Shown: one piece after another, positions 4,002-45,532 of the stretch | Numbering within the stretch: position 1 is the first letter of the stretch | Layout: each line of letters opens with the position of its first letter | Origin: an uncultured Omnitrophica bacterium | GTDB lineage: Bacteria; Omnitrophota; Gorgyraeia; JACQQV01 | Assembly: GCA_947085655.1 (NCBI GenBank) | Contig: CAMTXH010000013.1 | Coordinates: 23,513 to 87,512 of the forward strand | DNA: 64,000 bases | Direction: 5' to 3' | The notes under the pieces: generated by a model | The model's database searches: none | The model's input: the letters and a program-made list of their open reading frames with translations, nothing else | Told to the model about the DNA's origin: nothing | Made by a program: the position numbers and the translations under genes

Positions 4002-4442
4002 TTGGCAAAGGACAAACAGGGTTTTCTCACCGATATCAAAGAACTCCGGCGAAGGGCAAGAAAACACATTTATAAGCGGCACTACTTCATGGCCCAGGGG
4101 ATTCATGCCGAACCGGTTGCCCAGGAATTTCTCCAGCATGCCAATGACGAACAAACCCATGCGGACCAGATCGCAGCCCGGATTACCCAACTGGGGGGAG
4201 AGCCGGATTTCAGCCCGGAGGGATTGACGACCGGAAGCCATGCCGAATACGCCGAAGGGGATTCCTTGATTGATAGGGTGAAGGAAGACCTGGTTGCGGA
4301 GCGGATTGCGATTGACTCCTACGGAGAGAAGGATCCCACCACGCGCCGGATGCTCGAAGGGATTCCCGCCATGGAGGAAGAGCATGCGGACGACCTTGCC
4401 AATATCCTCTCAACGCTTGACCCGCGAAAAACCCCCTCTTGA
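4002..4442 (+). CDS. Ferritin-like di-iron protein (bacterioferritin/Dps superfamily)
   Basis: E-x-x-H di-iron ligand pattern (FLQHANDEQTHADQIAARI...EEEHADDLANIL) of the ferritin-like four-helix bundle; TTG start. Confidence 0.55.
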   Translation: MAKDKQGFLTDIKELRRRARKHIYKRHYFMAQGIHAEPVAQEFLQHANDEQTHADQIAARITQLGGEPDFSPEGLTTGSHAEYAEGDSLIDRVKEDLVAERIAIDSYGEKDPTTRRMLEGIPAMEEEHADDLANILSTLDPRKTPS

Positions 4443-4470
4443 TCCGAAGGCCTATCTCGGAACCCGGACG

Positions 4471-5718
4471 ATGATCGAGTTTATTGAGCACCTTGGAGAA
4501 AAGATAGACGCCTCATGGGGAAAGAAGGGGTACGCCCTGGAGGCCTTTTCGCAGATTGCTTTTCAAACCCTTCAGCAGGCCGGACTGCATAGGGTATTTA
4601 CGGTCGAAAAACTTCTGGATTCCCTCTGGACGAAGAAGGACCTTCCCAAACAGCTTTCCCTATTTAACGGATTCGGACAGCCCCCCATTACGCTCTATCG
4701 CAATCAGCAACACAACTTTCTGATCGATCTTTATTTCTGGATTCAGCCCGAAATCTCCATCCACTCACACGGGTTTCGGGGCGCGTTTACAGTCCTGGAG
4801 GGTAGGAGCTTCCAGTGCCGGTACGATTTTTCCATCCGTGATAACCTCGAAAATACCATTTTATTCGGTGACCTGACGCTTCGGGATACGACACTCCTTC
4901 ATCCGGGGGATGTTCAGGAGATTTTGGCCGGACCGTCCTATATTCATCAGGTCTGGCATCTCAGTTTTCCGACCCTCTCGCTGGCGGTCCGTACCCTTGA
5001 ACCACAACAGACCCAGTACGTCTATTTGAGGCCCCATATGGCCTTCTTGGCCCGTTCGAACGCGATGTCTTTGACAGAAGAGAATACAGCCTATTTCCCT
5101 CTTCCAAGTAAAAAGATCGATACCCTCGTCTGTTTGAACGCGACCCGGTATCCGCTAGAGGGCCGCAGCCCCCGCGCATGGCTGAAAGCGTTGATTGCAG
5201 AAACCCCTCCCCACGAAGGGTTTCTTCATCTCATAAAGTATTATGACCTCACCCGCGATATCGAGGCGATTCAGGATGTTCTAAACAGTGCCCCATCACT
5301 CGGAAAGTGGGCTCCGGAATTTCTCGCCACCTTGAGCCGGATGCATGGGGTGCAGATCAAGTGGACCCAGATCCGGGAGGAGGGGGAGCGGTTTCTCCTG
5401 GCGCTTCTTTTCTCCCTTGAAGAACAAAGTGATATCATGCGGTTGGTTCGGGCCTACAACCCTGCGGAAGCACCCGAGGCCCTCATCGTCAAGTGGTTGG
5501 CCGGTCTGATGCACCGTCGGGATGTGAATATTCAGATGAATCATACCGCGCTCACAGTCCTGGAACGGTTCCTTTACGGCGATTCCGAGGAGGAAGTTTG
5601 CAGACATCTTTCCCGGATCTACAAGGGGACGGATCCGCAAATCTTAAAGGAAGATGTCCGACAGATCCGGGATCGACTCCGTTCCGACGGACTGCTGAAG
5701 GCATTACAAAAAGGTTGA
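4471..5718 (+). CDS. Hypothetical protein with an N-terminal cupin-like domain
   Basis: The ORF-track ORF (4294) overlaps the ferritin-like gene; the first in-frame ATG after that gene's stop is at 4471 (MIEFIEHLGEK). It carries a cupin-like H-x-H...E motif (IHSHGFRGAFTVLEG) and a second His-containing motif (IHQVWH). Confidence 0.5.
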   Translation: MIEFIEHLGEKIDASWGKKGYALEAFSQIAFQTLQQAGLHRVFTVEKLLDSLWTKKDLPKQLSLFNGFGQPPITLYRNQQHNFLIDLYFWIQPEISIHSHGFRGAFTVLEGRSFQCRYDFSIRDNLENTILFGDLTLRDTTLLHPGDVQEILAGPSYIHQVWHLSFPTLSLAVRTLEPQQTQYVYLRPHMAFLARSNAMSLTEENTAYFPLPSKKIDTLVCLNATRYPLEGRSPRAWLKALIAETPPHEGFLHLIKYYDLTRDIEAIQDVLNSAPSLGKWAPEFLATLSRMHGVQIKWTQIREEGERFLLALLFSLEEQSDIMRLVRAYNPAEAPEALIVKWLAGLMHRRDVNIQMNHTALTVLERFLYGDSEEEVCRHLSRIYKGTDPQILKEDVRQIRDRLRSDGLLKALQKG

Positions 5719-9008: not shown

Positions 9009-9311
9009 GTGAACATGGCGTCGGTGAAACCAAAACGGAACAAAAGACAAACGCTGGTGGCCGCGTCTGTCGCGGGCCTTCTCGCTTTGGCGGCTGTCCC
9101 CGGCATGGTGCAGGGGCATCTGGAAGCGGCCGAGGAAGGGAAGACGAAGTGTTACGGCGTCAACAAGTGTAAGGGCACCGGTGACTGCGGTGGAAAGGGT
9201 CATTCCTGTGCAGGACTGAATGCCTGTCAGGGGCAGGCGTGGATTTATCTTCAGGAAAAGGACTGCCTTCGGATCCAGGGCGGGCGCTTGACTCCCGAAG
9301 AAGAAGGATAA
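9009..9311 (+). CDS. DUF2282-family secreted Cys-rich small protein (bufferin BufA-like RiPP precursor candidate)
   Basis: Sec signal peptide (LVAASVAGLLALAAVPGMVQG), then KCYGVNKCKGTGDCGG-HSCAG-NACQGQAW...DC, matching the conserved Cys-containing DUF2282 core as I recall it. An AAGGAGG RBS lies 7 nt upstream. Its stop codon overlaps the downstream ATG (TAATG). Confidence 0.7.
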   Translation: MNMASVKPKRNKRQTLVAASVAGLLALAAVPGMVQGHLEAAEEGKTKCYGVNKCKGTGDCGGKGHSCAGLNACQGQAWIYLQEKDCLRIQGGRLTPEEEG

Positions 9312-11002
9312 TGTGGCCTCTTCTCGGGTGCGGGGTCGGTCTTCGGACGGATCATTATGACCTGATTACCCGCGAATGGCCCGGGATGGACTGGTTTGAG
9401 GCTGTCTCCGAGAATTTTATTGATTCTGGGGGACGGCCTCTTTCTGTTTTGGAGAAGGTCCGGGCCCGTTATCCGGTGGCCCTCCACGGCGTCTCTCTTT
9501 CCATCGGTTCGGCCGATCCGCTGGATGAAACATATCTCAAAAAATTAAAAACGCTTGCGGATCGGATCGAACCGGTCTTGGTAACGGACCACCTTTGTTG
9601 GAACGGTGTAGCGGGGGAGTGCCTGCACGATCTTCTGCCCCTTCCATTTACGGAAGAGGCGATCCGGCATGTGGTACGGCGGGTCCAAAAGGTCCAGGGG
9701 TTTCTTGGCCGGCGGATTCTCCTTGAAAATATCTCCACTTACATTACGTACAAACATTCGGAGATGCCGGAATGGGTTTTTCTTTCGGAAATTGCCCGCC
9801 GTTCCGGATGCGGCATCCTTCTTGATTTGAACAACCTCTATGTCAATTCCGTCAATCACCGTTTCGAGCCGGAGGAAACCCTCCGGAATATTCCGGGAGA
9901 ATTCGTCGGACAGTTCCATCTGGCCGGGCATACCGACAAGGGAAAATACCTTTTTGATACCCATAATAGCCGTGTGATCGAGCCGGTCTGGGAGTTGTAC
10001 CGGAAGGCCCTTTGTCAGTGGGGGGCGGTGGCTACCCTGATTGAATGGGACGAGGCGATCCCCGATTTTCCAGGTCTTTCGGAGGAGTCGAAAAAAGCGC
10101 GGGCGATTTATGAGGAAGTGACGAAAGGCAAAAAAGATGCTTTAGAAGCAGCTCCTTCCCAAAAACCGGTCATCCGCCCCCGGCCGCCGGAGGGGCCAGA
10201 TCTTGCAACGCTTCAGTGTTGGATGAAATCCCAGATTCGGCCGAGCGGCGGTGGGAAAGAAACTTTTTCCGAATCTCCCCTGAATCCGCAGGGGGGAGAC
10301 CCGGGAATAGTCCGGATGGAGGTGTACGCATCCGGGTATCTGGCGAGGATGAAAGAAGCGCTTGAAGAGGTTTATGAGGCGGTGCACCACCTGACGGGCG
10401 AGGGGGTCTTTTCACGCCTTGCAACCGACTACGCGAAACAATTTCCCTCCCGGCATTACAATTTAAGCGCGGCCGGGGTCCATTTCAGCCGTTTTTTGGA
10501 GATGGCGGAAATCACCGAAAAGCTTCCCTTTCTGCCGGATCTTGTACGGCTTGAGTGGAAGGTGAATCAGGCCTTTCACGCTTTTGAAAAACCGCCCCTC
10601 TCACCGGAGATCTTTCAATCCGTTCCGGAGGAAAAGTGGGATGACTTGGTTTTTGAGTTTCAACCCTCCGTCGGCATCGTCTCCTCCGGGTGGCCTATTC
10701 TGGACCTTTGGCAGGCGCGGAAAACTCCTCGCAAGGAAATCGATATCCAGGTCGTGGACCGCCCCCAGACAGTGCTTATTTTCCGGAAGGGTTTTCAGGT
10801 CCGGTGCGAAAATCTTGAAAGAGGAGAGGCCGCGCTTCTTGAGGGGCTTCTTGCCGGCCGAAGCCTCGGCGATGTCTGCGGTTCGCTTGCCGACTTTTCA
10901 AAAGATCTGTTGCCCGATCTCACCGGAACTTTCCGCAATTGGATGCAAAAAGGCCTTCTGATATGTTACAATGCAGGTAGGATTGGGCACGATGCAAAAT
11001 AG
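9311..11002 (+). CDS. Fused DUF692 (MbnB/BufB-like TIM-barrel di-iron enzyme) and DUF2063 (MbnC/BufC-like) protein
   Basis: The N-terminal ~280 aa show DUF692 hallmarks (GVGLRTDHY, FEAVSENF, HGVSLSIGS, VTDHLCW, LLPLPFTEE, ILLENISTY, GCGILLDLNNLYVNS, FHLAGH). After a Pro-rich linker the C-terminal ~250 aa are DUF2063-like. It is one uninterrupted ORF. The ORF-track start (9239) overlaps bufA; ATG at 9311 (MWPLLGCGVGLRTDHY) is preferred. Confidence 0.75.
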   Translation: MWPLLGCGVGLRTDHYDLITREWPGMDWFEAVSENFIDSGGRPLSVLEKVRARYPVALHGVSLSIGSADPLDETYLKKLKTLADRIEPVLVTDHLCWNGVAGECLHDLLPLPFTEEAIRHVVRRVQKVQGFLGRRILLENISTYITYKHSEMPEWVFLSEIARRSGCGILLDLNNLYVNSVNHRFEPEETLRNIPGEFVGQFHLAGHTDKGKYLFDTHNSRVIEPVWELYRKALCQWGAVATLIEWDEAIPDFPGLSEESKKARAIYEEVTKGKKDALEAAPSQKPVIRPRPPEGPDLATLQCWMKSQIRPSGGGKETFSESPLNPQGGDPGIVRMEVYASGYLARMKEALEEVYEAVHHLTGEGVFSRLATDYAKQFPSRHYNLSAAGVHFSRFLEMAEITEKLPFLPDLVRLEWKVNQAFHAFEKPPLSPEIFQSVPEEKWDDLVFEFQPSVGIVSSGWPILDLWQARKTPRKEIDIQVVDRPQTVLIFRKGFQVRCENLERGEAALLEGLLAGRSLGDVCGSLADFSKDLLPDLTGTFRNWMQKGLLICYNAGRIGHDAK

Positions 11003-37110: not shown

Positions 37111-38997
37111 TTGATTTTAATACAATCTTCGATGCAGTTGCAACAAAAAAATGAAATGAGAAATAAGCCCCTCATGGTCTATGACGGCGATTGTGCTTTT
37201 TGCCGCCGCTGGATTCTCCGCTGGAACTCCCTGACAAAAGGGCGGGTCGAGTATGCTCCTTTTCAGGAAGTGGCCCAAGAATTTCCTGAAATACCGCGGG
37301 AAGCGTTCGAGAAGTCGGTTCAGTTGATTCTGCCCGACGGAAACGTCTTTTCAGGGGCAGAAGCAACTTTTCGATGTCTTGCCGAAGGAGGGAAGTGCTG
37401 GCCTTTGCGGTTCTACCGGTATCTTCCGGGCGCGGCGCTCCTTGCGGAATGGGGGTATGCTCTTGTTGCGCGCCACCGCATTTTTTTCTCAAAAGTCAGC
37501 CGGTGGCTTTGGGGAAAGGAACTCGAACCGCCCACTTTTGAAACTACACGGATGGTCTTTCTCCGGGGGTTGGGTGTAGTCTACGGCATCGCCTTTGTTT
37601 CCCTCTGGACGCAGATTGCAGGCCTCGTCGGAACAAACGGCATCCTTCCGATGAAGCCGTATCTGGAGACGGCCCGTCTTTTTCTGGGGGGTGAACGCTT
37701 TTGGTCTTTACCGACCCTTTTTTGGATGAATCAGGAGGACGTCTTTCTTCACCTTGTCTGCGGAGGAGGGACGCTTCTTTCCCTTGTTCTTATCGCCGGG
37801 ATTGCGCCGGTTCCGGTTCTCGTTTTGCTTTGGTTTTCCTACCTTTCCCTCGCGGTCGTCTCCCGAGATTTCCTTCAGTTTCAATGGGATGCTCTTCTTC
37901 TTGAATGCGGGTTTTTGGCTATTTTTCTGGCTCCCTTCGGGTGGTTGCCCCGCTCGTTTCATCGTTCTCCTCCTTCACGAGCGGTCCTCTGGCTATTCGC
38001 CTGGCTCCTTTTCCGGCTCATGTTTTCCTCCGGCATGGTGAAACTTGCAAGCCATGACCCGACCTGGCGGAACCTTACCGCCCTTCAATATCATTATGAA
38101 ACGCAGCCCCTCCCGACCTGGATCGGGTGGGCCGTCCATCAACTCCCGGCCTGGTTTCAAAAGGGATCTGCGGCCGGGATGTTTGCGATTGAACTCGGGG
38201 TCCCCTTTCTGATTTTTATGCCGAGACGGATCCGGTATTTCGGCTGTGCGGTTTTAATCGGCTTTCAGATACTCATCGCGGCAACCGGAAACTACTGCTT
38301 CTTCAATCTCATCACCGTCCTTCTTTGTCTTCTCCTTTTGGAGGATTCCTTCTGGCGGAGGTGGCTACGGCGGGGAACGCCTTTTCTCGAGAAGTCCGAA
38401 TCCTTCCGTTCGCGACACTGGCCCCGATGGATCCTGGTCCCTCTTTTCGCGCTCATCATCCTCGCGACACTGGCCCCGATGGTCGATCTTTTCCATCCGC
38501 GCTTCCGGTGGCCCAACGCGGTGATCGCACTTTATCGGGATTTGATTCCCTTTCGAAGCATCAACTCCTACGGTCTTTTTGCGGTCATGACGACCGACCG
38601 ACCCGAAATTATTGTGGAGGGCTCAAACGACGGGGAAAATTGGGTTCCGTACGCGTTCAAATACAAACCGGGCGATTTAAAAAGGCGTCCCGGTTTTGTC
38701 GCCCCGCATCAGCCGCGGCTCGACTGGCAGATGTGGTTTGCGGCACTCGGGCCTTATCAACAAAGTCCCTGGTTCCTCCATTTCTGCGAGCGTCTCCTTG
38801 AGGGGTCCCCGGAGGTCCTTGCCCTTCTTGAGACGAACCCCTTCCCGGATGCCCCTCCGCGCTATCTCCGTGCTGTCCTTTATGATTACCGCTTCACCCA
38901 CTTTGGTATTTGGCGCGAAAAGGGGCATTGGTGGCAAAGGACCCCCCGCGGTTTTTACCTGCCGCCTATCACCCTTCGTGATTCGGAATTTCCTTAA
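37111..38997 (+). CDS. Fusion of DUF393 (thiol-disulfide oxidoreductase DCC) with a lipase-maturation-factor (LMF) family polytopic membrane domain
   Basis: VYDGDCAFCRRW (DCC motif) at the N-terminus, then about 10 TM segments including a YHYETQPLP-type LMF region. The probable start is ATG 37156 (MRNKPLMVYDG). Confidence 0.7.
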   Translation: MILIQSSMQLQQKNEMRNKPLMVYDGDCAFCRRWILRWNSLTKGRVEYAPFQEVAQEFPEIPREAFEKSVQLILPDGNVFSGAEATFRCLAEGGKCWPLRFYRYLPGAALLAEWGYALVARHRIFFSKVSRWLWGKELEPPTFETTRMVFLRGLGVVYGIAFVSLWTQIAGLVGTNGILPMKPYLETARLFLGGERFWSLPTLFWMNQEDVFLHLVCGGGTLLSLVLIAGIAPVPVLVLLWFSYLSLAVVSRDFLQFQWDALLLECGFLAIFLAPFGWLPRSFHRSPPSRAVLWLFAWLLFRLMFSSGMVKLASHDPTWRNLTALQYHYETQPLPTWIGWAVHQLPAWFQKGSAAGMFAIELGVPFLIFMPRRIRYFGCAVLIGFQILIAATGNYCFFNLITVLLCLLLLEDSFWRRWLRRGTPFLEKSESFRSRHWPRWILVPLFALIILATLAPMVDLFHPRFRWPNAVIALYRDLIPFRSINSYGLFAVMTTDRPEIIVEGSNDGENWVPYAFKYKPGDLKRRPGFVAPHQPRLDWQMWFAALGPYQQSPWFLHFCERLLEGSPEVLALLETNPFPDAPPRYLRAVLYDYRFTHFGIWREKGHWWQRTPRGFYLPPITLRDSEFP

Positions 38998-39068
38998 AAG
39001 GTGGGTTGACGCATTACCCTCTTTTGTAGTAGACTAAAAAAGTCTGGATTCAAGGTCATTGAAAGGGG

Positions 39069-39401
39069 GTGCCTATGCCGAAGTATCTTATTGTCGAAAG
39101 CCGCGATTTGATGGAATACAAAGAGAGCGATTTTGCCCTGAATCTGGCCGGTTCCCTGAAGAAAAAGGGAAATGAGACAACGCTTTATCTTATTGAAAAC
39201 GGCGTCCTTGCCGCCAGAAAAGGATCCGAGGCGGCGGCCAAACTCACCGCTTTATCCAAGGAAGGGGTCAAGGTTCTGGCGGAAGACCTCTCGCTTAAAA
39301 TGCGCGGGGTCAAAGAGCGCACGGAGGGGGTTTCCGAATCGAGCATGGATGCCCTCGCGGATCTCATTTTGAACGGCGCAGATAAAGTCATCTGGTATTA
39401 A
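39069..39401 (+). CDS. DsrE/DsrF-like (YchN fold) sulfur-relay family protein
   Basis: YLIVESRD...LYLIENGVLAARKGS...ADKVIWY pattern typical of DsrE/TusD-like proteins. Confidence 0.65.
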   Translation: MPMPKYLIVESRDLMEYKESDFALNLAGSLKKKGNETTLYLIENGVLAARKGSEAAAKLTALSKEGVKVLAEDLSLKMRGVKERTEGVSESSMDALADLILNGADKVIWY

Positions 39402-39412
39402 ATGAAGACACA

Positions 39413-39459
39413 ACTTACGCCTGCCTGCCGGCAAGGCAGGGAACGTTAGTGACGTAAGT
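39413..39459 (+). other. Nested stem-loop element (outer 7-bp stem ACTTACG/CGTAAGT enclosing CCTGCC-N-GGCAGG) between two dsrE-like genes
   Basis: A perfect 7-bp outer inverted repeat with an inner GC-rich hairpin; no canonical T-run. Confidence 0.35.
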
Positions 39460-39519
39460 CGTTGTCTGAATTTATCCCGAGCGAGGCCGAAGGCCGAGTC
39501 GAGGGATCAGGAGGTTATT

Positions 39520-39945
39520 ATGACTTCAGAAACGAAACCGAAAGTTGTGACCATCGGCATCGCAACCGCCTCTTACCAAAGGGAGGCGCCGACGACGGTT
39601 CTGCGGCTTACCGAAAAACTCCTTCAAAGAGGCGCCCATGTCAATATCTGGACTTTTGAAGAGGCGGTGACCCTCACCAACAAAGACCAGAAGGATCATC
39701 AGGAGCCACCCGGCCTTCATGAGGTGGCCGGCCGCCAGCATACCTATGTCGGTAAATTTGTCGACGGAATCATGAAGGCCGCGCTCCATAGCGGTGCGCT
39801 CAAATGGGTGGTTTGCATCCTCTGTGTGCAGGAGCGGGGCGTGGACGCGCACCAGATGAACGGCGTCATTATCGGAACCTTCGGCGATTTCTGGAAATTC
39901 GCGAACGCCTCCGACCGGCTCATTATGATTCCGACCTATCGGTAA
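39520..39945 (+). CDS. DsrE-like family protein (divergent, Cys-containing)
   Basis: KVVTIGIATASY...AHVNIWTFEEAV and a conserved Cys cluster (WVVCILCVQERG); the fold assignment is inferred. Confidence 0.5.
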   Translation: MTSETKPKVVTIGIATASYQREAPTTVLRLTEKLLQRGAHVNIWTFEEAVTLTNKDQKDHQEPPGLHEVAGRQHTYVGKFVDGIMKAALHSGALKWVVCILCVQERGVDAHQMNGVIIGTFGDFWKFANASDRLIMIPTYR

Positions 39946-39964
39946 GACAAAAAAGGAGAAAGCG

Positions 39965-40354
39965 ATGATCGAAAAAGTGTTAGCAGTTTTCGAAAAACCG
40001 ATTTACTTAAGTTTCGAACCGAACGACCCGCACCTTCTCCATGTCGGATTCGGCTCCGTCTCAAGCGGCGTGAAGGTGAATGTCCTTCTCCGGGGATCTG
40101 CCGTGAACTACGCCGTGAAGGAACAACATCAGACCGATGCGAAACTTCTGGGTCAGCCCCTTGCGGAAGTGGATACCTCGCCGGCCAAGGTGATGGAACT
40201 TATCGCCAAAAACGGCGGGGAACTTTCCGTCGTGAAAGAGGATCTTGCGAAACGCGGGCTTTCACAAGCGGAACTCATCCCTCAAGCAAAGCTCGTCTCA
40301 GAATCGCAGGTTGCAGACCTTGTCGCCGCCAACGACGCCGCCTTTATATGGTAG
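39965..40354 (+). CDS. DsrE/DsrF/DsrH-like family protein
   Basis: KVLAVFEKPIY...VNVLLRGSAV pattern. Confidence 0.5.
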   Translation: MIEKVLAVFEKPIYLSFEPNDPHLLHVGFGSVSSGVKVNVLLRGSAVNYAVKEQHQTDAKLLGQPLAEVDTSPAKVMELIAKNGGELSVVKEDLAKRGLSQAELIPQAKLVSESQVADLVAANDAAFIW

Positions 40355-40608
40355 AGAGCGTGGCGAAGCCGGATAAGACCTTGGATGCGCGGGCTTTTTT
40401 CAACCCGATCGACTGCCGGAGTCTCGATGTGATCCGCGAGGAATTAAAGACGATGGCGGTGGGGAATGTCCTTGAAATCTACGCAAACGCCTTTCAAAAG
40501 CGGGAAATCGAAAGTTGGGCGAAGAAATTCCGGCACCCGATCCTCTCTGTAACCGACAACGAAGGTCTTATCACCATCCATCTTCAGAAGGGCCCGCCTC
40601 TCGGATAG
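40348..40608 (+). CDS. TusA-like sulfur-carrier-fold protein (non-canonical Cys position)
   Basis: LDARAFFNPIDCRSLDVIREELKTMAVGNVLEIYANAFQKREIESWAKKF follows the TusA layout (LDxRGL-CP-P...G-VLEV...D...W), with the CPxP replaced by NPIDC. Confidence 0.45.
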   Translation: MVESVAKPDKTLDARAFFNPIDCRSLDVIREELKTMAVGNVLEIYANAFQKREIESWAKKFRHPILSVTDNEGLITIHLQKGPPLG

Positions 40609-40614
40609 CCCTCC

Positions 40615-41028
40615 ATGAAAAAAATCGCGATCCTCGTCTCCCGCGGAAGTTACAACTCACTCGTCCAGGTCATGACCCTTGTCATGGCCTGTATGGTTTC
40701 AGAGATCAAAGTGCGCCTTTTTTTCCGCGATGAATCGGTCTTTAAACTGACCCCGAAAGAGGCAGGAAAAATTAACCTCACCGAGTTCTACAAAGGGCAG
40801 GAAGCCGCTGTTCTCGAGCGGCTCAAACAAAATAAACTGGAAAACCTCCAGTCTCTCCTTAAAGAAATCAAATCAAAAGGGGACATCCGCGTCGCGGTCT
40901 GCTCCTCTTCACTCGCCATCTGCGGCTTAAAGCACGAAGACCTCATCCCCGAAGTCGATGAGGTCCAAGGCCTCACCTCATTTCTCCTCGAAGAAATTGC
41001 CACCGCGGATCAGGTGCTTACCTTTTAA
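40615..41028 (+). CDS. DsrE-like family protein
   Basis: KKIAILVSRGSYNS...VRLFF...IRVAVCSSSLAICGL pattern. Confidence 0.5.
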   Translation: MKKIAILVSRGSYNSLVQVMTLVMACMVSEIKVRLFFRDESVFKLTPKEAGKINLTEFYKGQEAAVLERLKQNKLENLQSLLKEIKSKGDIRVAVCSSSLAICGLKHEDLIPEVDEVQGLTSFLLEEIATADQVLTF

Positions 41029-41038
41029 ATCTCCTTCT

Positions 41039-44000
41039 TTACTCAGGACCGGGGAATTCGTCCTTAGGCCGACGCGGCTTGGTTCCAAATCGGGCCGGGA
41101 TCCGCTGAGTGACCCATGTTCCGTCATAGTCTCTGACAGTCACACGGATTTCATCTGCATAGGTCTCATCTACAGGTTGGAGGGGTTCGTATCGAAACGT
41201 CCATTTAGCTTGGCTGATTCCGGGTCCATAATAAGGCGCTCCCATCGGGATAATGGTTGCTCCTGACATGGTTCGATAACTGATATAGTTGGTATGATTC
41301 TGATACCGGAAATTATTGTCAAGGTCATTTGCTTTAATGACAAAGGTGTACCCTGTAACCCCTGGCTGAACATAGATTCCCCTGGTACTTCCTCCAAGGT
41401 CAGGGACGTAATTGGCATGATGGACCCATACGTTCCGGCTTAATGTCGATATCCCCCCATCAGGGTGCATCGCCTCAAAGGTAATTGTATAGGGCCCCTG
41501 CGGGCTAGGATTGGGAGGTGGAGGGATTGGAGGATTTGCGGCAGGATCAATCGGCGCCGCTGCAATCCCTGGATCCGGGTTCCAGAGTAAACTAACGGAG
41601 GGGTTGGTGGGATCAAGAGCCACCCAATCCCATATACTGACACCCCCTCTACTCCACAAGGCATCTGGCGTTAAGGGAGCCGTGGTGGTGGAAGCGACTC
41701 GCACCCGAACTGTCTCAGAGACTGCAGGATTCCGAGCGATCGGAAAGGTTGCAGTAATATCTTCTGTAACATCAAAGGGGGAAGGAGTATTGTTGGTAAT
41801 GAGTTTGACATCATTCACATAAATGGAAATGCCGACCATACTCACACTGTGTCCATCTGAAATATTTACCGAGAGATTAAATCTTCTGGGAGCGGCTCCA
41901 TCCGCCACGATACTGTAAGTTGGTTGCCAAGTGAACTCTGCCGTAGCAGGCCGGGCTGTCCCCGAGCCGGTGCTTCTAAACTGGGCTCCAAGGGTGGGAT
42001 GAGGAGTGCCGTCGGAAGGAAGGAGGTCTCCGTCTAAATAAACCCAGAAGGAGAGATTGTCGACACATTCTGGTGCCGATCCACTATTGGGCTCATTTCC
42101 CTCAAACCGAAGGATAAAGCTTTCTCCTTCGTTCCTTGTTGTGGAGCCGGAGACAAACCTCACTCTCGGATAATGGGGCTCACATCCTGCGAGGGCTGTC
42201 CGTGTCGGATTTCCGCGGAACATCGGCCAAGATGCCTCGCCAGAAAGATTTTGAGGCAACTCACCGATCTTTAAAGATCCTTCTTTTCCGATAAAGACGA
42301 ACTCATCTTTTGGATCAGCGTCGATATTCCCCCAGAAATAGCCTTTTGCAGCAGGGAGATGCCCTCCCAAAATCAGGGAAGAAAGATTATCGTTATTGAG
42401 TAGTCGTAAGCCAAACGAGGAAACCTTGATAGGGTCGTAACGGGCATAGGGATGATAGAGTCGTGAAGGTGCAACAAAACCGATGGGGCCGATTGGGGTT
42501 GCAATGGGAGAAAAATCTTCTCCAAAAAACCTCTCCATCTCAATTGTGGGTGGTTGGAAATAGGTATCAAACTTCTCAATAAAACTGCTGTATCGTGTCC
42601 TGCTCCAGTTGTAGCTATCCGGACCGTTTGAGGCAGTTTCATAGCATTTAAGATACCAGCCCCAATGGGGGTACTCGAAATCGCAAGGACTCGCGGGACA
42701 GAAACCGGTGAGCCAATCCCAAAAACCGCAATCTCTCTCGCAACCGGTCCATACCCCTTCGTATGCCATGAGGAGTACCGACATCCTTCCGTCTGAATTT
42801 CTCATGAGGATCGGAGAACCATAATAGACTTCATAAATATAGTTGCTATTCCCATAGGTTACCGAATGTTCAATTTCTCCTGCATTGCCTCGGTGTGTCA
42901 AAATATAAAGGATTGAGGAACCAGCTCGGCTACCGTCGAAGCCTGAGGGGACAGCCACTACCACTTCAAGTGTTCCATCGTTGTCAATGTCCCCAATGAC
43001 CGGTGCGGCATCAACTTTTGCATAGGGATTTGTATATGAAACTAACCAATCATTTGGATTAGGTGGATTATAACTATAAGAAATCCCCGGGAAGGGGCCC
43101 CACCCGGGGAGGGGTTGACTATTCCATTGAAGCGCAAAGAGGCCTTGGTCAGTGGCCGCAACTACTTCCCTCGTCCCATCTCCGTTCAAATCGGCCACGG
43201 CGGGGCTCGAGATGGCTTTAACCGGCTGGGCTGTATGAAAATCTACAGGCCCCCAACCAGAGACAAAGGTTCCATCCGCACGGAAGGCATAGAGTTGATC
43301 GCCGACAGACACGATGACTTCCGGACGCTCTTCGGCATCATAATCGATATCAGAAATGACAGGGGCTCGATAATATTCCCATCCCCAATATTGATGCGGT
43401 ATCCTTTGTGGCCAACCTGGAAGAACGTCGTCTGTCCCAAGGGTGAGTGCATACAATAAAGTGTTTGGCTCGCGGCCCGCTTGCACGACAATTTCTTTTA
43501 CTCCATCTCCATTCAAATCCCCTGCGGCTGGAATTCCAACCGGATCTCCTAAAAATTTCCATTCTTTTAAAAGGACTCCATTCTGTTGCCACGCTTCGAT
43601 ACCGGGAACCGGGCTTTTAATAGAGAGTACAATCTCCTGGTTTCCATCGTTATCCAGATCGACGAGTAAAGGATTGTGCTTATGGAGTTCCCCATGTTGC
43701 GCGACCCATCCCGGCTGCGCCCCGATGAATATTTTTGCGATGTCTACTTTTATCTGGGGTTGACCTTGGACCGTAAGCCTTATTGTAAATTCTCCCCACG
43801 GAGGAAGGCCATCCGCTGGCCATCCCATTGTGCTTCTGCTTAAAATTCCCAATAAAGGTGTTGCCGAGGGAGTTGTAGAATGGACAATGGTCTGCCAGGG
43901 AATCGCTTCATCTTCCCATCCCCGACGGTACTCCAATGTATATCCTTGAAAGTTTCCACCCAAAGCCATGCCAAATATCGGAATTCCCGCCTCAATTTCA

Positions 44001-45532
44001 TCAACCGAAAACAAGCCCTTTTTAAAGGAAGATAAGAACGTTGCCATAATTGGGCTATTGCGCAAATCGCTTGGACCGCTAACAGTCGCAGTAAAAGTAG
44101 AGAAGAATGTCGCCTCATTTCCGGCTACATCGACCGCCTTGACTGTGATTACCCATTCGCCCGAAGGGATGTTAAATTGGTAATAAGGATTCCCAATAAG
44201 CCCTGAGTTTAATATCGTGATGTTATCTTCGCTGGTGAAAGGACTCCCTGCGAAGTCGAATGTCCATCTGTAGTGAAGGATATATTTTTCGACCTCTGTT
44301 TCTGCATCGTCGGCTTGTGGCCACCTGAGAGTGAAAGAGCCGGATGTAACATCTCCAATCGTTTCAAAAGTCCCTAGGCGGAATGTGGGGGGATTTCTAT
44401 CTGTTACAATATGGATTTGCCCAGGATAGATGAGAACATCGTTACTGCTATCTGTGTCACGAGGTTCGATGACTCTTTGAAGGAGGTAGTAAGTCCCCTC
44501 TGGAACATCCTGTGTTTCAATTACCAATTCATGCGTTCTTGTCTCATTTGAACCCACAATTGGGAAAGGAATATTGGTTCTGCCCACAAACTCGTCAGAG
44601 AGATCCCACAGCTCGTCTTCAGAAAGGTAGAATTGCACTTCGGGATTAGCGATGTCAAAAAGGGGACCTTGGTTGTCGACACTGAATCTAAAACGGGATC
44701 GTCTGCCCTGAGGAAGACGTCTGTCATCAGGGGGTAGGCCTTCGATAGTTGGTATGATCCCGAGCGATCTGGAATCACCCTCTGGATCCGCATACTCATA
44801 ATTCGTCATCGAGAAGTCCCACTGGGGGAGATTATTGGGATCATCGGAAGGATACATCATCAACATGGCCTCGGCGTCATCCCCGTAAGTCCGCTCAGGA
44901 TTTCCAGCGTGCAACCCTCTAACGGACATAATGGAAAGGATTGGATCTCCAAAGGTTCCTTGATCGGAATGGCTGAGCCCAAGGGTATGGCCGATTTCAT
45001 GAATTGCGACGTGCCGAAAAGAAGCTACTCCATAGAAATTGGGCCATTCCTCAAATCCCGGGTAAATATTTGATGGATGTGGGTCGTAGAATTCTATGAA
45101 CCAATGTTTCCTCGTATTAAAATAAAGAAAGGCATAATCGATAAATCCATTGTTATCACCATCAATAGAAGGTGAGTACCCCGCGGCATCAGGATTAAAA
45201 CCCCGCTCCTCAAAATCAGCGAAGCCAACGACGATATCCCCGTCACGAGCTTGGTAGTTACAATTTTCGATGGTAAATCCAAACGTGAAGAAGGTGGGGG
45301 GAGGAGCATACCAACGTGATCCCTTGACTGCCCACTGAGGAATCGACTCTGTAAAGGCATTGATAAACTCATTGCGCGTTGGGTTTCCGGAAGGCCAACC
45401 GCAATCCACTATCCGGAAATTAGGTATAACTCCCTCAGGCCAAGGGATGTCCTCCTCGAAGGCCTCTCCTTTGGAGACTCCCAAAAGAAACACCAAGCAT
45501 GCAGTTAAGATGACTCGCTTTGCCATGGTCAC
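41039..45532 (-). CDS. Giant secreted zinc metalloprotease (metzincin, matrixin/M10-like HEIGHTLGLSHS) with FG-GAP beta-propeller repeats and Ig/Fn3-like beta domains
   Basis: Signal peptide MTMAKRVILTACLVFLLGVSKGEA. The motif HExxHxxGxxH+S is followed by a Met-turn (SIM). At least four DxDxDG FG-GAP repeats are present (DLDNDGNQEIV, GDLNGDGVKEIV, ADLNGDGTREVV, GDIDNDGTLEVV). It is 1497 aa, and the gene's GC looks lower than in neighbouring genes. Confidence 0.8.
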   Translation of the reverse strand: MTMAKRVILTACLVFLLGVSKGEAFEEDIPWPEGVIPNFRIVDCGWPSGNPTRNEFINAFTESIPQWAVKGSRWYAPPPTFFTFGFTIENCNYQARDGDIVVGFADFEERGFNPDAAGYSPSIDGDNNGFIDYAFLYFNTRKHWFIEFYDPHPSNIYPGFEEWPNFYGVASFRHVAIHEIGHTLGLSHSDQGTFGDPILSIMSVRGLHAGNPERTYGDDAEAMLMMYPSDDPNNLPQWDFSMTNYEYADPEGDSRSLGIIPTIEGLPPDDRRLPQGRRSRFRFSVDNQGPLFDIANPEVQFYLSEDELWDLSDEFVGRTNIPFPIVGSNETRTHELVIETQDVPEGTYYLLQRVIEPRDTDSSNDVLIYPGQIHIVTDRNPPTFRLGTFETIGDVTSGSFTLRWPQADDAETEVEKYILHYRWTFDFAGSPFTSEDNITILNSGLIGNPYYQFNIPSGEWVITVKAVDVAGNEATFFSTFTATVSGPSDLRNSPIMATFLSSFKKGLFSVDEIEAGIPIFGMALGGNFQGYTLEYRRGWEDEAIPWQTIVHSTTPSATPLLGILSRSTMGWPADGLPPWGEFTIRLTVQGQPQIKVDIAKIFIGAQPGWVAQHGELHKHNPLLVDLDNDGNQEIVLSIKSPVPGIEAWQQNGVLLKEWKFLGDPVGIPAAGDLNGDGVKEIVVQAGREPNTLLYALTLGTDDVLPGWPQRIPHQYWGWEYYRAPVISDIDYDAEERPEVIVSVGDQLYAFRADGTFVSGWGPVDFHTAQPVKAISSPAVADLNGDGTREVVAATDQGLFALQWNSQPLPGWGPFPGISYSYNPPNPNDWLVSYTNPYAKVDAAPVIGDIDNDGTLEVVVAVPSGFDGSRAGSSILYILTHRGNAGEIEHSVTYGNSNYIYEVYYGSPILMRNSDGRMSVLLMAYEGVWTGCERDCGFWDWLTGFCPASPCDFEYPHWGWYLKCYETASNGPDSYNWSRTRYSSFIEKFDTYFQPPTIEMERFFGEDFSPIATPIGPIGFVAPSRLYHPYARYDPIKVSSFGLRLLNNDNLSSLILGGHLPAAKGYFWGNIDADPKDEFVFIGKEGSLKIGELPQNLSGEASWPMFRGNPTRTALAGCEPHYPRVRFVSGSTTRNEGESFILRFEGNEPNSGSAPECVDNLSFWVYLDGDLLPSDGTPHPTLGAQFRSTGSGTARPATAEFTWQPTYSIVADGAAPRRFNLSVNISDGHSVSMVGISIYVNDVKLITNNTPSPFDVTEDITATFPIARNPAVSETVRVRVASTTTAPLTPDALWSRGGVSIWDWVALDPTNPSVSLLWNPDPGIAAAPIDPAANPPIPPPPNPSPQGPYTITFEAMHPDGGISTLSRNVWVHHANYVPDLGGSTRGIYVQPGVTGYTFVIKANDLDNNFRYQNHTNYISYRTMSGATIIPMGAPYYGPGISQAKWTFRYEPLQPVDETYADEIRVTVRDYDGTWVTQRIPARFGTKPRRPKDEFPGPE

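What the first reader, a model, noticed from the sequence alone, without database searches (positions are those of the whole stretch)
39069..41028. Compact cluster of five small DsrE/DsrF/DsrH-like and TusA-like sulfur-relay proteins with an intergenic nested hairpin
Five consecutive same-strand genes (110, 141, 129, 86 and 137 aa) all have YchN/DsrE-like or TusA-like sequence patterns, and several carry conserved Cys (CILC, NPIDC, AVCSSSLAICG). No dsrAB, sox, hdr or molybdopterin genes are in the window. It is a stand-alone persulfide-relay module of unknown destination, possibly feeding Fe-S or thio-cofactor biosynthesis (Nfu and ApbC lie 11 kb upstream), or sulfur oxidation encoded elsewhere. 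The TusA-like member has a displaced Cys (NPIDC instead of CPxP).
Basis: partly seen in the sequence, partly recalled or inferred. Interest (0 to 1): 0.6.

Follow-up and report, generated by a model that had tools for sequence, protein, structure and literature searches.

The report
Conserved five-gene DsrE/TusA sulfur relay
Five small adjacent genes encode sulfur-carrier proteins (a probable three-subunit DsrEFH-like complex, a TusA-like protein and a DsrE2-like protein); in some related bacteria this set lies next to sulfate-assimilation and thiolation enzymes, so it most likely moves sulfur for biosynthesis and not for energy.

Summary
Five co-oriented genes lie at 39075-41028. They are g1 (108 aa), g2 (141), g3 (129), g4 (86) and g5 (137). 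Pfam places g1, g2 and g5 in the DsrE family and g4 marginally in TusA. g3 is DsrH-like only at profile level.

The set is a conserved unit. It occurs in Nitrospirota, including cultured Leptospirillum ferriphilum, and, with a canonical TusA, in Rokubacteria and other phyla.

Only g2, g4 and g5 carry conserved cysteines. g2 Cys99 is replaced by an in-frame TGA with a SECIS-like hairpin in 15 species, which marks it as the catalytic residue of a C/U-x-x-C motif. The g4 cysteine lies at the TusA active-site position in a model, although the CPxP motif is absent.

The window itself has no sulfur-metabolism partners. In relatives, g5 or the whole set lies beside siroheme sulfite reductase, ATP sulfurylase, an assimilatory AprA-like reductase, a ThiF-rhodanese E1 and PP-loop thiolases.

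Best reading: a biosynthetic persulfide relay, not a dissimilatory one. It is a new variant of a known kind.

The hairpin between g1 and g2 is a lineage-specific inserted palindromic element and has no evident link to the system.

The parts
39006..39035 (+). Sigma-70-like promoter candidate (TTGACG-18-TAGACT), about 40 nt upstream of g1
   Evidence: Consensus scan, 9 of 12 matches. This is a consensus match only and was not tested.
39075..39401 (+). g1: a 108-aa DsrH/DsrE-fold protein with no cysteine in this genome. Presumed non-catalytic subunit of a DsrEFH-like hetero-oligomer.
   Evidence: Pfam DsrE 40.7 bits and DsrH 30.2 bits. TIGR03011 TusB/DsrH 32.8 bits, below the cut-off of 49.2. hhalign against the g3 family gives 91.6% probability. 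It is always first in the g1-g2-g3 order in 28 GTDB-species loci. Most Nitrospirota orthologues have 'SC[KNQR]xRG' where the window has 'SLKMRG'.
39402..39519 (+). g1-g2 spacer carrying a roughly 105-nt inserted palindromic element (nested hairpin plus a second GGCC-GAA-GGCC hairpin), followed by the g2 Shine-Dalgarno sequence AGGAGG
   Evidence: Fold z = -3.0. The element is unique in the window and has no Rfam match. The spacer is only about 10 nt in the closest relatives L063-L065 and is not conserved in other Nitrospirota loci. A related element lies at another intergenic site of relative L064 (76% identity).
39520..39945 (+). g2: a 141-aa DsrE/YchN-like protein and the presumed catalytic subunit, with Cys99-x-x-Cys102 (CILC)
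   Evidence: Pfam DsrE 31.2 bits. The family profile hits YchN 1JX7 (E 5e-5, aligning the CxxC motifs) and A. vinosum DsrE 2HY5_A. C99 and C102 are invariant. C99 is replaced by an in-frame TGA plus a SECIS-like hairpin in 15 species.
39965..40354 (+). g3: a 129-aa DsrH/TusB-like protein with no cysteine. Presumed non-catalytic subunit.
   Evidence: Pfam scores are below cut-off (DsrH 22.1, DsrE 17.6). The family profile hits DsrH 2HY5_C (E 2e-4), YchN and TusB 2D1P_C. The family is narrow: 41 cluster representatives among 1.84 billion proteins.
40348..40608 (+). g4: an 86-aa TusA-fold protein with the motif FNPIDCRSL in place of CPxP. Its start overlaps the g3 stop (ATGGTAG).
   Evidence: Pfam TusA 29.1 bits against a cut-off of 28.6. 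AlphaFold2 model has pLDDT 77 and Cys23 sits two residues before helix 25-34. Foldseek best hits are E. coli TusA 1DCJ and 3LVJ_C, TM 0.71-0.78. N19, P20 and C23 are conserved in 48-49 of 49 loci.
40615..41028 (+). g5: a 137-aa DsrE2B-like protein (PF13686) with invariant Cys96 (VCSSS) and a variable Cys103
   Evidence: Pfam DsrE 40.6 bits and DrsE_2 28.4 bits. The profile hits 2QS7 (SSO1126) at E 1.5e-15; PMC4175335 names that protein DsrE2B. C96 is conserved in 77/77 loci and C103 in 50/77. It is the member most often found next to sulfite reductase and ThiF-rhodanese in relatives.

Best explanation
The five genes encode a cytoplasmic relay for sulfane sulfur (protein persulfide) used in sulfur assimilation and thio-compound biosynthesis.

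Proposed anatomy:
- g1, g2 and g3 are three paralogous DsrE-fold proteins. They most likely assemble like DsrEFH/TusBCD into a hetero-oligomer in which only g2 is catalytic (Cys99, backed by Cys102 in a C-x-x-C motif).
- g4 is a TusA-fold carrier with its cysteine at the N-cap of helix 1.
- g5 is a DsrE2B-like, probably homotrimeric, carrier with one invariant cysteine.

Proposed function: sulfur made available by the assimilatory branch (siroheme sulfite reductase in relatives) is held as Cys-persulfide. It is passed between g5, g4 and g2 to acceptors such as the rhodanese domain of a MoeZ-type ThiF E1 (sulfur-carrier-protein thiocarboxylation) and PP-loop thiolases.

What is shown: family and fold membership, conservation of the gene set, which cysteines are conserved, the Cys/Sec exchange at g2 Cys99, and the gene neighbourhoods in relatives.

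What is inferred: hetero-oligomer formation, persulfide chemistry, the order and direction of transfer, and the identity of donor and acceptor in this genome. Here the partners are not encoded within 64 kb.
For: Family and fold:
- Pfam places g1, g2 and g5 in DsrE, g5 also in DrsE_2, and g4 in TusA.
- Profile hits to solved structures are YchN and DsrE for g2, DsrH and TusB for g3, and DsrE2B 2QS7 for g5.
- The g4 model matches E. coli TusA with TM 0.74-0.78.
- g1 and g3 are paralogues (hhalign 91.6%). The g2 and g5 cysteines fall in the same column.

Conserved unit:
- The g1-g2-g3-(TusA-like)-g5 order occurs in about 28 GTDB species representatives from Nitrospirota, Methylomirabilota/Rokubacteria, Gemmatimonadales and Binatia.
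- It also occurs in about 25 metagenome loci and in cultured L. ferriphilum.

Catalytic residues:
- g2 C99 is Cys in 37 and TGA in 15 of 52 loci. C102 is conserved in 52/52, g4 C23 in 48/49 and g5 C96 in 77/77.
- In the TGA cases the downstream frame stays open. An 8-bp hairpin 13 nt after the TGA is invariant even at synonymous sites.

Partners in relatives:
- Nitrospiria L006/L080/L084/L097 carry Rrf2, TauE, AprA-like, ferredoxin, a Sir-HEPN-2xTusA fusion, g1-g5 and Sat. The AprA-like protein matches the assimilatory PAPS reductase 8A8O at E 7e-196.
- L014 has Sir-TusA, g5 and Sat. Rokubacterial L037 has a Sat-Sir ORF upstream of g1-g3 and g5.
- About 15 Omnitrophota-type loci have Sir, g5 and ThiF+Rhodanese.
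- L066 and L069 have PP-loop, ThiI-like PP-loop with an NFACT-R domain, g4, g5 and ThiF+Rhodanese.
- A TtuA-like PP-loop gene lies within about 4-5 kb in five Rokubacteria/Binatia loci.
Against: - In the window, and in most Nitrospirota loci with long flanks (L020, L042, L045, L056, L073-L079, L086-L088, L092, L099), no sulfite reductase, Sat, ThiF-rhodanese or thiolase lies within 10 kb. The functional link therefore rests on a minority of lineages and mostly on g5.
- Sulfite reductase releases sulfide (S2-), whereas DsrE/TusA proteins carry S0. How sulfide would become a persulfide is not explained.
- The C/U-x-x-C motif is typical of thiol-disulfide oxidoreductases and could point to redox chemistry and not to pure transfer.
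- No DsrC/TusE-like acceptor is encoded nearby.
- All NCBIfam equivalog models for TusA, TusB, TusC and TusD score far below cut-off.
- The g2 structure prediction was of low confidence (pLDDT 52). Hetero-oligomer formation could not be modelled.
Confidence: 0.55

Rival explanations
1. The set is a dedicated tRNA-thiolation relay. It would be a functional analogue of E. coli TusA/TusBCD/TusE, delivering cysteine-desulfurase sulfur to MnmA- or TtuA-type enzymes, with g5 in the place of TusE.
For: - It consists of five small proteins with the same fold composition as the Tus system, apart from TusE.
- JGI pipelines name g2 homologues 'tRNA 2-thiouridine synthesizing protein D'.
- In L069 a ThiI/MnmA-like PP-loop protein with an RNA-binding NFACT-R domain lies directly upstream of g4-g5.
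- A TtuA-like gene lies near the cluster in five Rokubacteria/Binatia loci.
Against: - The TusA/B/C/D equivalog models score 15-33 bits against cut-offs of 49-104.
- There is no TusE/DsrC-like gene.
- No mnmA, iscS or sufS lies next to the cluster in the window or in most loci.
- The strongest neighbourhood signal is with sulfite reductase, Sat and ThiF-rhodanese.
- This reading overlaps with the best explanation, as one possible destination.
Confidence: 0.15
2. The set is a thiol-disulfide or persulfide-reducing redox system and not a carrier relay. g2 would use its C/U-x-x-C motif to reduce persulfides, polysulfides or sulfenates (detoxifying reactive sulfur or selenium species, as proposed for YedF), with g4 and g5 presenting the substrate.
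For: - The C-x-x-C motif is invariant, and Sec replaces the first Cys in 15 species.
- Zhang et al. 2005 listed the 'DsrE-like' UxxC selenoproteins among thiol-dependent redox proteins (PMC1088965).
- YedF combines TusA-like and DsrE-like domains with a CGxC motif and is linked to selenium metabolism (PMC5322559).
- JGI names g5 homologues 'peroxiredoxin family protein'.
Against: - The YedF model scores 16 bits against a cut-off of 110.
- No selD/selA, thioredoxin reductase or glutaredoxin is a conserved neighbour in the loci mapped.
- The TusA and DsrE2 families are established sulfur carriers.
- Association with biosynthetic sulfur enzymes in several phyla fits trafficking better.
Confidence: 0.15
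3. The set feeds a dissimilatory sulfur-oxidation pathway (rDsr- or sHdr-type) encoded elsewhere in the genome, as canonical TusA-DsrEFH or DsrE3/TusA sets do.
For: - The fold composition resembles the TusA + DsrEFH + DsrE2 sets of sulfur oxidisers (PMC11094781).
- The Nitrospiria operon with an AprA-like protein, Sat, TauE and Sir superficially mirrors a reverse Dsr-Apr-Sat route.
Against: - No dsrAB, dsrC, hdr, sox, sqr or lbpA gene lies in the window or in any Pfam-annotated related locus.
- The AprA-like neighbour is closest to the assimilatory PAPS reductase of a methanogen.
- Hosts include L. ferriphilum and Manganitrophaceae. By established knowledge these are iron or manganese oxidisers, not sulfur oxidisers.
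Confidence: 0.05

Closest known systems
DsrEFH (type I, Allochromatium vinosum, PDB 2HY5) and TusBCD (E. coli, PDB 2D1P)
   Same: There are three adjacent genes for paralogous DsrE-fold subunits of about 100-140 aa. Only one subunit (the DsrE/TusD-like g2) carries the conserved cysteine at the active-site column. They are accompanied by a TusA-type protein. The g3 profile hits DsrH and TusB, and the g2 profile hits DsrE.
   Different: - Equivalog models are missed by a wide margin.
- Both non-catalytic subunits look DsrH-like, with no clear DsrF/TusC.
- The catalytic subunit has a C/U-x-x-C motif instead of a single Cys.
- There is no DsrC/TusE partner and no dsrAB or mnmA context.
- Hosts are not sulfur oxidisers.
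DsrEFH type II (cable bacteria and sulfate reducers; Plum-Jensen et al. 2026, PMC13293266)
   Same: Both are divergent three-gene DsrEFH-like sets missed by standard annotation, syntenic with a tusA-like gene, with one conserved Cys in the DsrE-like subunit. Nitrospirota are among the carriers.
   Different: - The type II trimer is about 33 kDa with active Cys67. Here the sizes are 108 + 141 + 129 aa, about 42 kDa, with Cys99.
- Type II is syntenic with yeeE and co-occurs with dsrAB (74% reductive type). No yeeE or dsr lies near any locus here.
- All 46 cultured type II carriers are sulfate reducers or disproportionators, whereas L. ferriphilum carries the present set.
- A direct sequence comparison was not possible.
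TusA (PF01206; E. coli YhhP, PDB 1DCJ and 3LVJ)
   Same: g4 has the same two-layer alpha/beta fold (TM 0.74-0.78). One conserved Cys lies just before helix 1.
   Different: - The CPxP motif is replaced by the invariant FNP[IV]DC[RQ]SL.
- The loop before the Cys is three residues longer.
- The Pfam score barely reaches the cut-off and omits the motif region.
DsrE2B (SSO1126, PDB 2QS7; Mcup_0682)
   Same: g5 matches at E 1.5e-15 over nearly its full length and belongs to PF13686. The 'vCsss' cysteine is aligned.
   Different: - The archaeal proteins sit in dsrE3A-dsrE2B-tusA clusters next to Hdr-like sulfur-oxidation genes. Here the partners are sulfite reductase and ThiF-rhodanese or g1-g4.
- The function of DsrE2B is itself unknown. 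It was unreactive with thiosulfate and tetrathionate in the study of PMC4175335; this detail is recalled from that paper and was not re-read here.
YchN (E. coli, PDB 1JX7) and the 'DsrE-like' UxxC selenoprotein family (Zhang et al. 2005)
   Same: YchN is the best solved-structure hit of the g2 family, with its C-x-x-C aligned. Orthologues of g2 in Rokubacteria and other phyla are UxxC selenoproteins.
   Different: YchN is a homo-oligomer of unknown function and is not known to sit in such a five-gene set. The 2005 report named the selenoprotein family only, with no partners or pathway.

Membership tests
DsrE/DsrF-like family (PF02635) | The whole-protein score reaches the Pfam gathering cut-off (22.7 bits) | tested here: met
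   g1 scores 40.7, g2 31.2 and g5 40.6 bits. g3 fails with 17.6 bits and is only DsrH-like at profile level.
DsrH/TusB (PF04077, TIGR03011) | The score reaches the curated cut-offs (24.4 bits for Pfam, 49.2 bits for TIGR03011) | tested here: inconclusive
   g1 passes Pfam (30.2 bits) but fails TIGR03011 (32.8 bits). g3 fails both (22.1 and 23.1 bits). The g3 family profile nevertheless hits DsrH 2HY5_C at E 2e-4 and TusB 2D1P_C at E 0.006.
TusA (PF01206) | The Pfam gathering score is reached and the protein has the TusA fold | tested here: met
   29.1 bits against a cut-off of 28.6, which is marginal. Foldseek gives TM 0.74/0.78 to E. coli TusA 1DCJ at probability 1.00.
TusA (PF01206) | A Cys-Pro-x-Pro active-site motif at the N-terminus of helix 1 | tested here: not met
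   The motif is FNPIDCRSL. Alignments put Asn19 on the Cys column. Cys23 is nevertheless invariant (48/49) and lies two residues before helix 25-34 in the model.
DsrEFH type I / TusBCD | The equivalog models TIGR03010/03011/03012 (TusC/B/D) reach their cut-offs | tested here: not met
   The best scores are 23.5, 32.8 and 15.1 bits against cut-offs of 94, 49 and 89.
DsrEFH type I / TusBCD | Three different DsrE-fold subunits are encoded together, with only the DsrE/TusD-like one carrying the essential Cys | tested here: met
   The g1-g2-g3 order is conserved in 28 GTDB-species loci. g1 and g3 of the window have no Cys. g2 C99 is invariant or Sec.
DsrEFH type I / TusBCD | Hetero-hexameric (alpha2 beta2 gamma2) assembly and sulfur transfer to DsrC/TusE | not testable with these tools
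   No multimer prediction was available. No DsrC/TusE-like gene appears in any annotated neighbourhood.
DsrEFH type II (PMC13293266) | A trimer of about 33 kDa, synteny with yeeE and tusA, and co-occurrence with dsrAB | tested here: not met
   The subunits here sum to about 42 kDa. No YeeE/YedE or Dsr Pfam hits occur in annotated loci. The cultured carrier L. ferriphilum does not fit the paper's list of 46 cultured carriers, all of them sulfate reducers or disproportionators. Sequence-level comparison with type II proteins was not possible.
DsrE2B / DrsE_2 (PF13686; PDB 2QS7) | The PF13686 cut-off is reached and the protein is homologous to SSO1126 with the aligned Cys | tested here: met
   g5 scores 28.4 bits against a cut-off of 25. 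The profile hits 2QS7 at E 1.5e-15 with 'vCsss' aligned to 'aCstt'.
'DsrE-like' UxxC selenoprotein family | An in-frame UGA at the first position of an xxC motif in a PF02635 protein, with a downstream SECIS hairpin | tested here: met
   This is met for 15 orthologues (L010, L017, L022, L027, L030, L031, L034, L037, L039, L041, L044, L046, L051, L053, L054). The window protein is the Cys form (TGC at the codon for Cys99).
YedF (TIGR03527) | Fused TusA-like and DsrE-like domains that reach the model cut-off (110 bits) | tested here: not met
   The domains are on separate genes. The only hit is g1, at 16 bits.

The most novel reading that the evidence does not exclude
The set could be the missing link of a 'sulfide-free' assimilation route. 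In this route, sulfur leaving a siroheme sulfite reductase is captured directly as protein persulfide. In some relatives that reductase is itself fused to two TusA domains. The DsrE2B-like g5, the TusA-like g4 and a Cys/Sec-x-x-Cys DsrEFH-like complex (g1-g3) would hold it and hand it to a MoeZ-type E1-rhodanese. Cysteine, methionine or thio-cofactor synthesis would then be fed through thiocarboxylated carrier proteins without free H2S. This would amount to a third, assimilatory type of DsrEFH-like complex.
Probability: 0.2. Interest if true: 0.75.

Novelty: new variant of a known kind. Interest (0 to 1): 0.5.

Why it matters
DsrEFH/TusBCD-type complexes are known from two settings: dissimilatory sulfur metabolism and gammaproteobacterial tRNA thiolation. 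Here a divergent, conserved five-gene set occurs in iron- and manganese-oxidising Nitrospirota, Rokubacteria and others that do not live on sulfur. Its catalytic cysteine is interchangeable with selenocysteine. In several phyla it is linked to assimilatory sulfite reductase and to E1-rhodanese enzymes.

If the link is real, two poorly understood points become testable: how the toxic product of sulfite reduction is handled in aerobes, and where MoeZ/TtuC-type E1 enzymes obtain their sulfur. Because cultured Leptospirillum ferriphilum carries the set, experiments are feasible.

For annotation, the labels 'tRNA 2-thiouridine synthesizing protein D' and 'peroxiredoxin family protein' are unsupported. 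In addition, 15 species have a g2 homologue that is truncated in databases at an unrecognised Sec codon.

Tried and rejected
1. Hairpin as a regulatory part of the system: rejected. It is not conserved in other Nitrospirota loci and is absent from the closest relatives, whose spacer is about 10 nt. It has no Rfam hit. A related element lies elsewhere in a relative.

2. Nfu/ApbC link: rejected. The genes are not adjacent and not conserved.

3. Upstream LMF1/DCC1 thiol-disulfide oxidoreductase fusion as a partner: rejected. It is conserved only in the closest relatives.

4. Aldo/keto reductase as a recurrent partner (upstream of g1 in L. ferriphilum and in the Sir-g5 operons): rejected. The proteins are only 28-30% identical, so they are not orthologous.

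5. AlphaFold2 model of g2: pLDDT is 52 and the active-site region is below 50. The model was not used for fold search.

6. Naive longest-ORF gene calling in high-GC loci picked antisense ORFs. It was replaced by conservation-weighted ORF selection.

7. Word-indexed homologue search with g4 found only relatives of at least 74% identity, so the g4 alignment is shallow.

8. Literature searches found no paper describing this five-gene set or a Sir-DsrE2/TusA link.

9. The organism could not be named. The record is MAG GCA_964374045.1, and the closest relatives of the set are Nitrospirota.

10. Direct comparison with DsrEFH type II sequences was not possible, because the sequences are not in the held text or supplements.


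Full report
**Observation.**
The five + strand ORFs are present exactly where reported. They are g1 39069/39075-39401, g2 39520-39945, g3 39965-40354, g4 40348-40608 and g5 40615-41028. The gene call in the source MAG and the N-termini of orthologues favour ATG 39075 for g1, giving 108 aa. The source record is GCA_964374045.1, contig CAYJWX010000001.1.

g2 to g5 are tightly packed. The spacers are 19 nt and 6 nt, and the g3 stop overlaps the g4 start. g2 has an AGGAGG Shine-Dalgarno sequence. A sigma-70-like site lies at 39006-39035. A convergent 1497-aa gene ends 10 nt after g5.

**Family placement.**
- Pfam puts g1 (DsrE 40.7 bits, DsrH 30.2), g2 (DsrE 31.2) and g5 (DsrE 40.6, DrsE_2 28.4) above the curated cut-offs.
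- g4 just passes TusA (29.1 against 28.6), and only for profile positions 18-70.
- g3 is below cut-off (DsrH 22.1, DsrE 17.6).
- All NCBIfam equivalog models for TusA, TusB, TusC, TusD and YedF are missed by a wide margin.

With family profiles built from orthologues:
- g2 hits E. coli YchN (1JX7, E 5e-5), with its C-x-x-C aligned to that of YchN, and also A. vinosum DsrE.
- g3 hits DsrH (2HY5_C, E 2e-4), YchN and TusB.
- g1 gives only weak hits but is a paralogue of g3 (hhalign 91.6%).
- g5 hits 2QS7 at E 1.5e-15. This is SSO1126, classed as DsrE2B by Liu et al. 2014 (PMC4175335).

An AlphaFold2 model of g4 (pLDDT 77) has the TusA fold. Its best Foldseek matches are E. coli TusA 1DCJ and 3LVJ (TM 0.71-0.78). 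Cys23 lies two residues before helix 25-34, where TusA has its active Cys. The linear CPxP motif is absent, and alignments put Asn19 on the Cys column.

**A conserved gene set.**
A scan of one genome per GTDB species with the g5 family returned 51 loci. A metagenome scan with the g4 family returned 35 more. Mapping all five proteins and candidate partners onto these loci gave three arrangements:
- **A.** g1-g2-g3-g4-g5 in Nitrospirota. This group includes Manganitrophaceae, Troglogloeales, 'Nitrospiria' and the window, as well as cultured Leptospirillum ferriphilum (108/148/128/84/136 aa).
- **B.** g1-g2-g3-TusA-g5 in Methylomirabilota/Rokubacteria, Gemmatimonadales and Binatia. The fourth gene here is a better TusA (48 bits, motif GMLCAQG).
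- **C.** g5 alone, between a siroheme sulfite/nitrite-reductase-family gene and a ThiF+Rhodanese gene, in about 15 Omnitrophota-type MAGs.

Sub-variants also exist, such as g4-g5-ThiF/Rhodanese in L066 and L069. The g3 family is small: 41 cluster representatives at E <= 1e-3 among 1.84 billion proteins.

**Which residues matter.**
g1 and g3 of the window contain no cysteine. Most group-A g1 proteins have one ('SC[KNQR]xRG'), but the window and group B do not.

| Residue | Conservation over non-redundant loci |
|---|---|
| g2 Cys102 | 52/52 |
| g2 Cys99 | Cys in 37, in-frame TGA in 15, of 52 |
| g4 Cys23 | 48/49 |
| g5 Cys96 | 77/77 |
| g5 Cys103 | 50/77 |

In all 15 TGA cases (every group-B locus) the frame continues, conserved, for 42-43 codons. 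The sequence reads NWYV-U-GLCCVERGV, against DWVS-C-ILCVQERGV in group A. An 8-bp hairpin (GUGGAACG-GGG-CGUUCCAC) starts 13 nt after the UGA. It is invariant even at synonymous positions, while flanking codons vary. This fits a bacterial SECIS element.

A 'DsrE-like' UxxC selenoprotein family was already listed by Zhang et al. 2005 (PMC1088965). The window protein is its Cys form. A Cys/Sec pair is strong in-silico evidence that g2 Cys99 is the reactive residue.

**Context.**
The window holds no sulfur-metabolism partner. Pfam annotation of essentially all 64 kb shows no dsr, sox, hdr, Moco, sir, sat, cys, isc/suf or thiF genes. Nfu and ApbC lie about 10 kb upstream behind unrelated genes, and that arrangement is not conserved elsewhere. 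The upstream LMF1/DCC1 fusion is conserved only in the closest relatives.

Relatives are more informative:
- In 'Nitrospiria' (L006-L008, L080, L084, L097) the five genes sit inside an operon of Rrf2, TauE, AprA-like, ferredoxin, [Sir + HEPN + 2 canonical TusA domains], g1-g5 and ATP sulfurylase. The AprA-like protein is closest to the assimilatory PAPS reductase alpha subunit of Methanothermococcus thermolithotrophicus (8A8O, E 7e-196).
- L014 has Sir-TusA, g5 and Sat.
- A Rokubacterium (L037) has a Sat~Sir ORF upstream of g1-g3 and g5.
- Group C has Sir, g5 and ThiF-Rhodanese.
- L069 has ThiC, then a PP-loop ATPase, a ThiI/MnmA-like PP-loop protein with an NFACT-R RNA-binding domain, g4, g5 and ThiF-Rhodanese.
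- A TtuA-like gene lies within about 4-5 kb in five Rokubacteria/Binatia loci.

Most group-A loci with long flanks are as isolated as the window, and L. ferriphilum has the set among cobalamin genes. The functional link therefore rests on several independent but minority arrangements, and most strongly on g5.

**Mechanism proposed.**
By analogy with DsrEFH and TusBCD, only DsrE/TusD Cys78 accepts sulfur from TusA (established from the work of Dahl, Stockdreher and Ikeuchi, summarised in PMC11094781). On that basis, g1, g2 and g3 most likely form a hetero-oligomer with g2 as the active subunit. g4 and g5 would be further persulfide carriers.

The neighbourhoods point to biosynthetic traffic. 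The source would be sulfate assimilation. The sinks would be an E1-rhodanese that thiocarboxylates carrier proteins, and PP-loop thiolases.

Two points are unexplained:
- Sulfite reductase yields sulfide, not S0.
- The invariant C/U-x-x-C motif is typical of oxidoreductases. It might convert sulfide plus an enzyme disulfide into a persulfide, or it might release sulfide reductively. Either would make g2 more than a passive carrier.

I put 0.55 on the biosynthetic relay reading. The confidence that this is a DsrE/TusA-type sulfur-handling module at all is much higher, about 0.85.

**Rivals.**
- A dedicated Tus-like tRNA-thiolation relay (0.15). This overlaps with the main reading as one destination.
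- A persulfide or selenium redox/detoxification system in the manner proposed for YedF (0.15).
- Dissimilatory sulfur oxidation (0.05). This is disfavoured by the absence of dsr, hdr or sox in any related locus, by the assimilatory type of the AprA-like neighbour, and by hosts that are iron or manganese oxidisers.

**Comparison with what is known.**
The set works like TusA + DsrEFH/TusBCD + DsrE2 but is not a member of DsrEFH type I or TusBCD, because the equivalog models are not met. It does not fit the recently described DsrEFH type II (PMC13293266):
- The type II trimer is about 33 kDa with Cys67.
- It is syntenic with yeeE.
- It co-occurs with dsrAB.
- All cultured carriers are sulfate reducers or disproportionators.

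Here the three subunits sum to about 42 kDa, no yeeE or dsr lies nearby, and L. ferriphilum carries the set. A sequence-level test against type II was not possible. No paper describing this five-gene set or a Sir-DsrE2 link was found. I therefore rate it a new variant of a known kind.

**The hairpin.**
The structure is real (z = -3.0), but the 118-nt spacer is an insertion. The closest relatives (g2 95% identical) have about 10 nt between g1 and g2, and other Nitrospirota have short or unrelated spacers. A related element (76% identity, with the same ends and a different terminal hairpin) occupies another intergenic site in relative L064. It is unique in the window and has no Rfam match. It is best read as a small palindromic repeat element. 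It may incidentally affect g1 versus g2-g5 expression, but it is not part of the system.

**Verdict.**
Interest is moderate (0.5). The family assignment is ordinary. What adds value is the following:
- The five genes form a conserved unit.
- Its catalytic Cys is interchangeable with Sec.
- It occurs in bacteria that do not metabolise sulfur for energy.
- In several phyla it is linked to sulfite reductase and to E1-rhodanese.

Together these define a testable and apparently undescribed assimilatory-type sulfur relay.

Noticed in passing
L010:910-1344, L017, L022, L027, L030, L031, L034, L037, L039, L041, L044, L046, L051, L053, L054 (g2 orthologues): All 15 Rokubacteria/Gemmatimonadales/Binatia orthologues of g2 carry an in-frame TGA at the Cys99 column. 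A conserved SECIS-like hairpin and 42-43 more conserved codons follow. These are selenoproteins (UGLC motif) that ORF calling truncates at 100 aa.
   Followed up: yes
window 39402-39505; L064:11256-11352: The g1-g2 spacer is a roughly 105-nt insertion that is absent from close relatives. A related palindromic element sits in a different intergenic region of a related genome. This suggests a small REP/MITE-like repeat family in this lineage.
   Followed up: partly
L006:1453-6338 (also L007, L008, L080): A 'Nitrospiria' operon encodes an AprA-like flavoprotein nearly identical in architecture to the assimilatory PAPS reductase of a methanogen (8A8O, E 7e-196). It also encodes a small ferredoxin and an 895-aa sulfite reductase fused to a HEPN-like region and two canonical TusA domains (GVACPFN, GIGCPFN).
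   Followed up: partly
L004:4450-9588 and about 14 similar loci (L011, L012, L015, L016, L021, L024, L028, L032, L033, L035, L036, L038, L048, L055): In Omnitrophota-type MAGs there is a conserved operon of radical SAM, aldo/keto reductase, fused NirD/L-like siroheme-decarboxylase-type protein, NIR_SIR reductase, g5-like DsrE2 and ThiF+Rhodanese. Its pathway was not worked out.
   Followed up: partly
L037:4148-7066: A single 972-aa ORF combines ATP sulfurylase (PUA_2 + ATP-sulfurylase) with a complete NIR_SIR sulfite reductase in a Rokubacterium. It was not checked whether this is a true fusion or a sequencing or assembly read-through.
   Followed up: no
L069:4055-8129: The gene order is a PP-loop ATPase (295 aa), a ThiI/MnmA-like PP-loop protein with a C-terminal NFACT-R RNA-binding domain (362 aa), a g4-like TusA, a g5-like DsrE2 and ThiF+Rhodanese, downstream of ThiC. 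This looks like a compact thiolation cassette.
   Followed up: partly
window 37111-38997 (+): A 628-aa protein fuses a DCC1-like thiol-disulfide oxidoreductase domain to lipase-maturation-factor (LMF1 and LMF1_C) domains, directly upstream of g1. It is conserved only in the closest relatives.
   Followed up: partly
window 41039-45532 (-): A 1497-aa protein has faint FG-GAP repeats and a zinc-metalloprotease-like HExxH segment (HEIGHTLGLSH). It converges on the cluster, and its stop codon lies only 10 nt from the g5 stop.
   Followed up: no
window 9239-11002 (+): An MbnB/TglH/ChrH-type RiPP-modification enzyme is fused to a DUF2063 domain. A gene with a weak, sub-threshold PqqD-like match lies at 4294-5718. 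This may be a peptide-modification locus.
   Followed up: no
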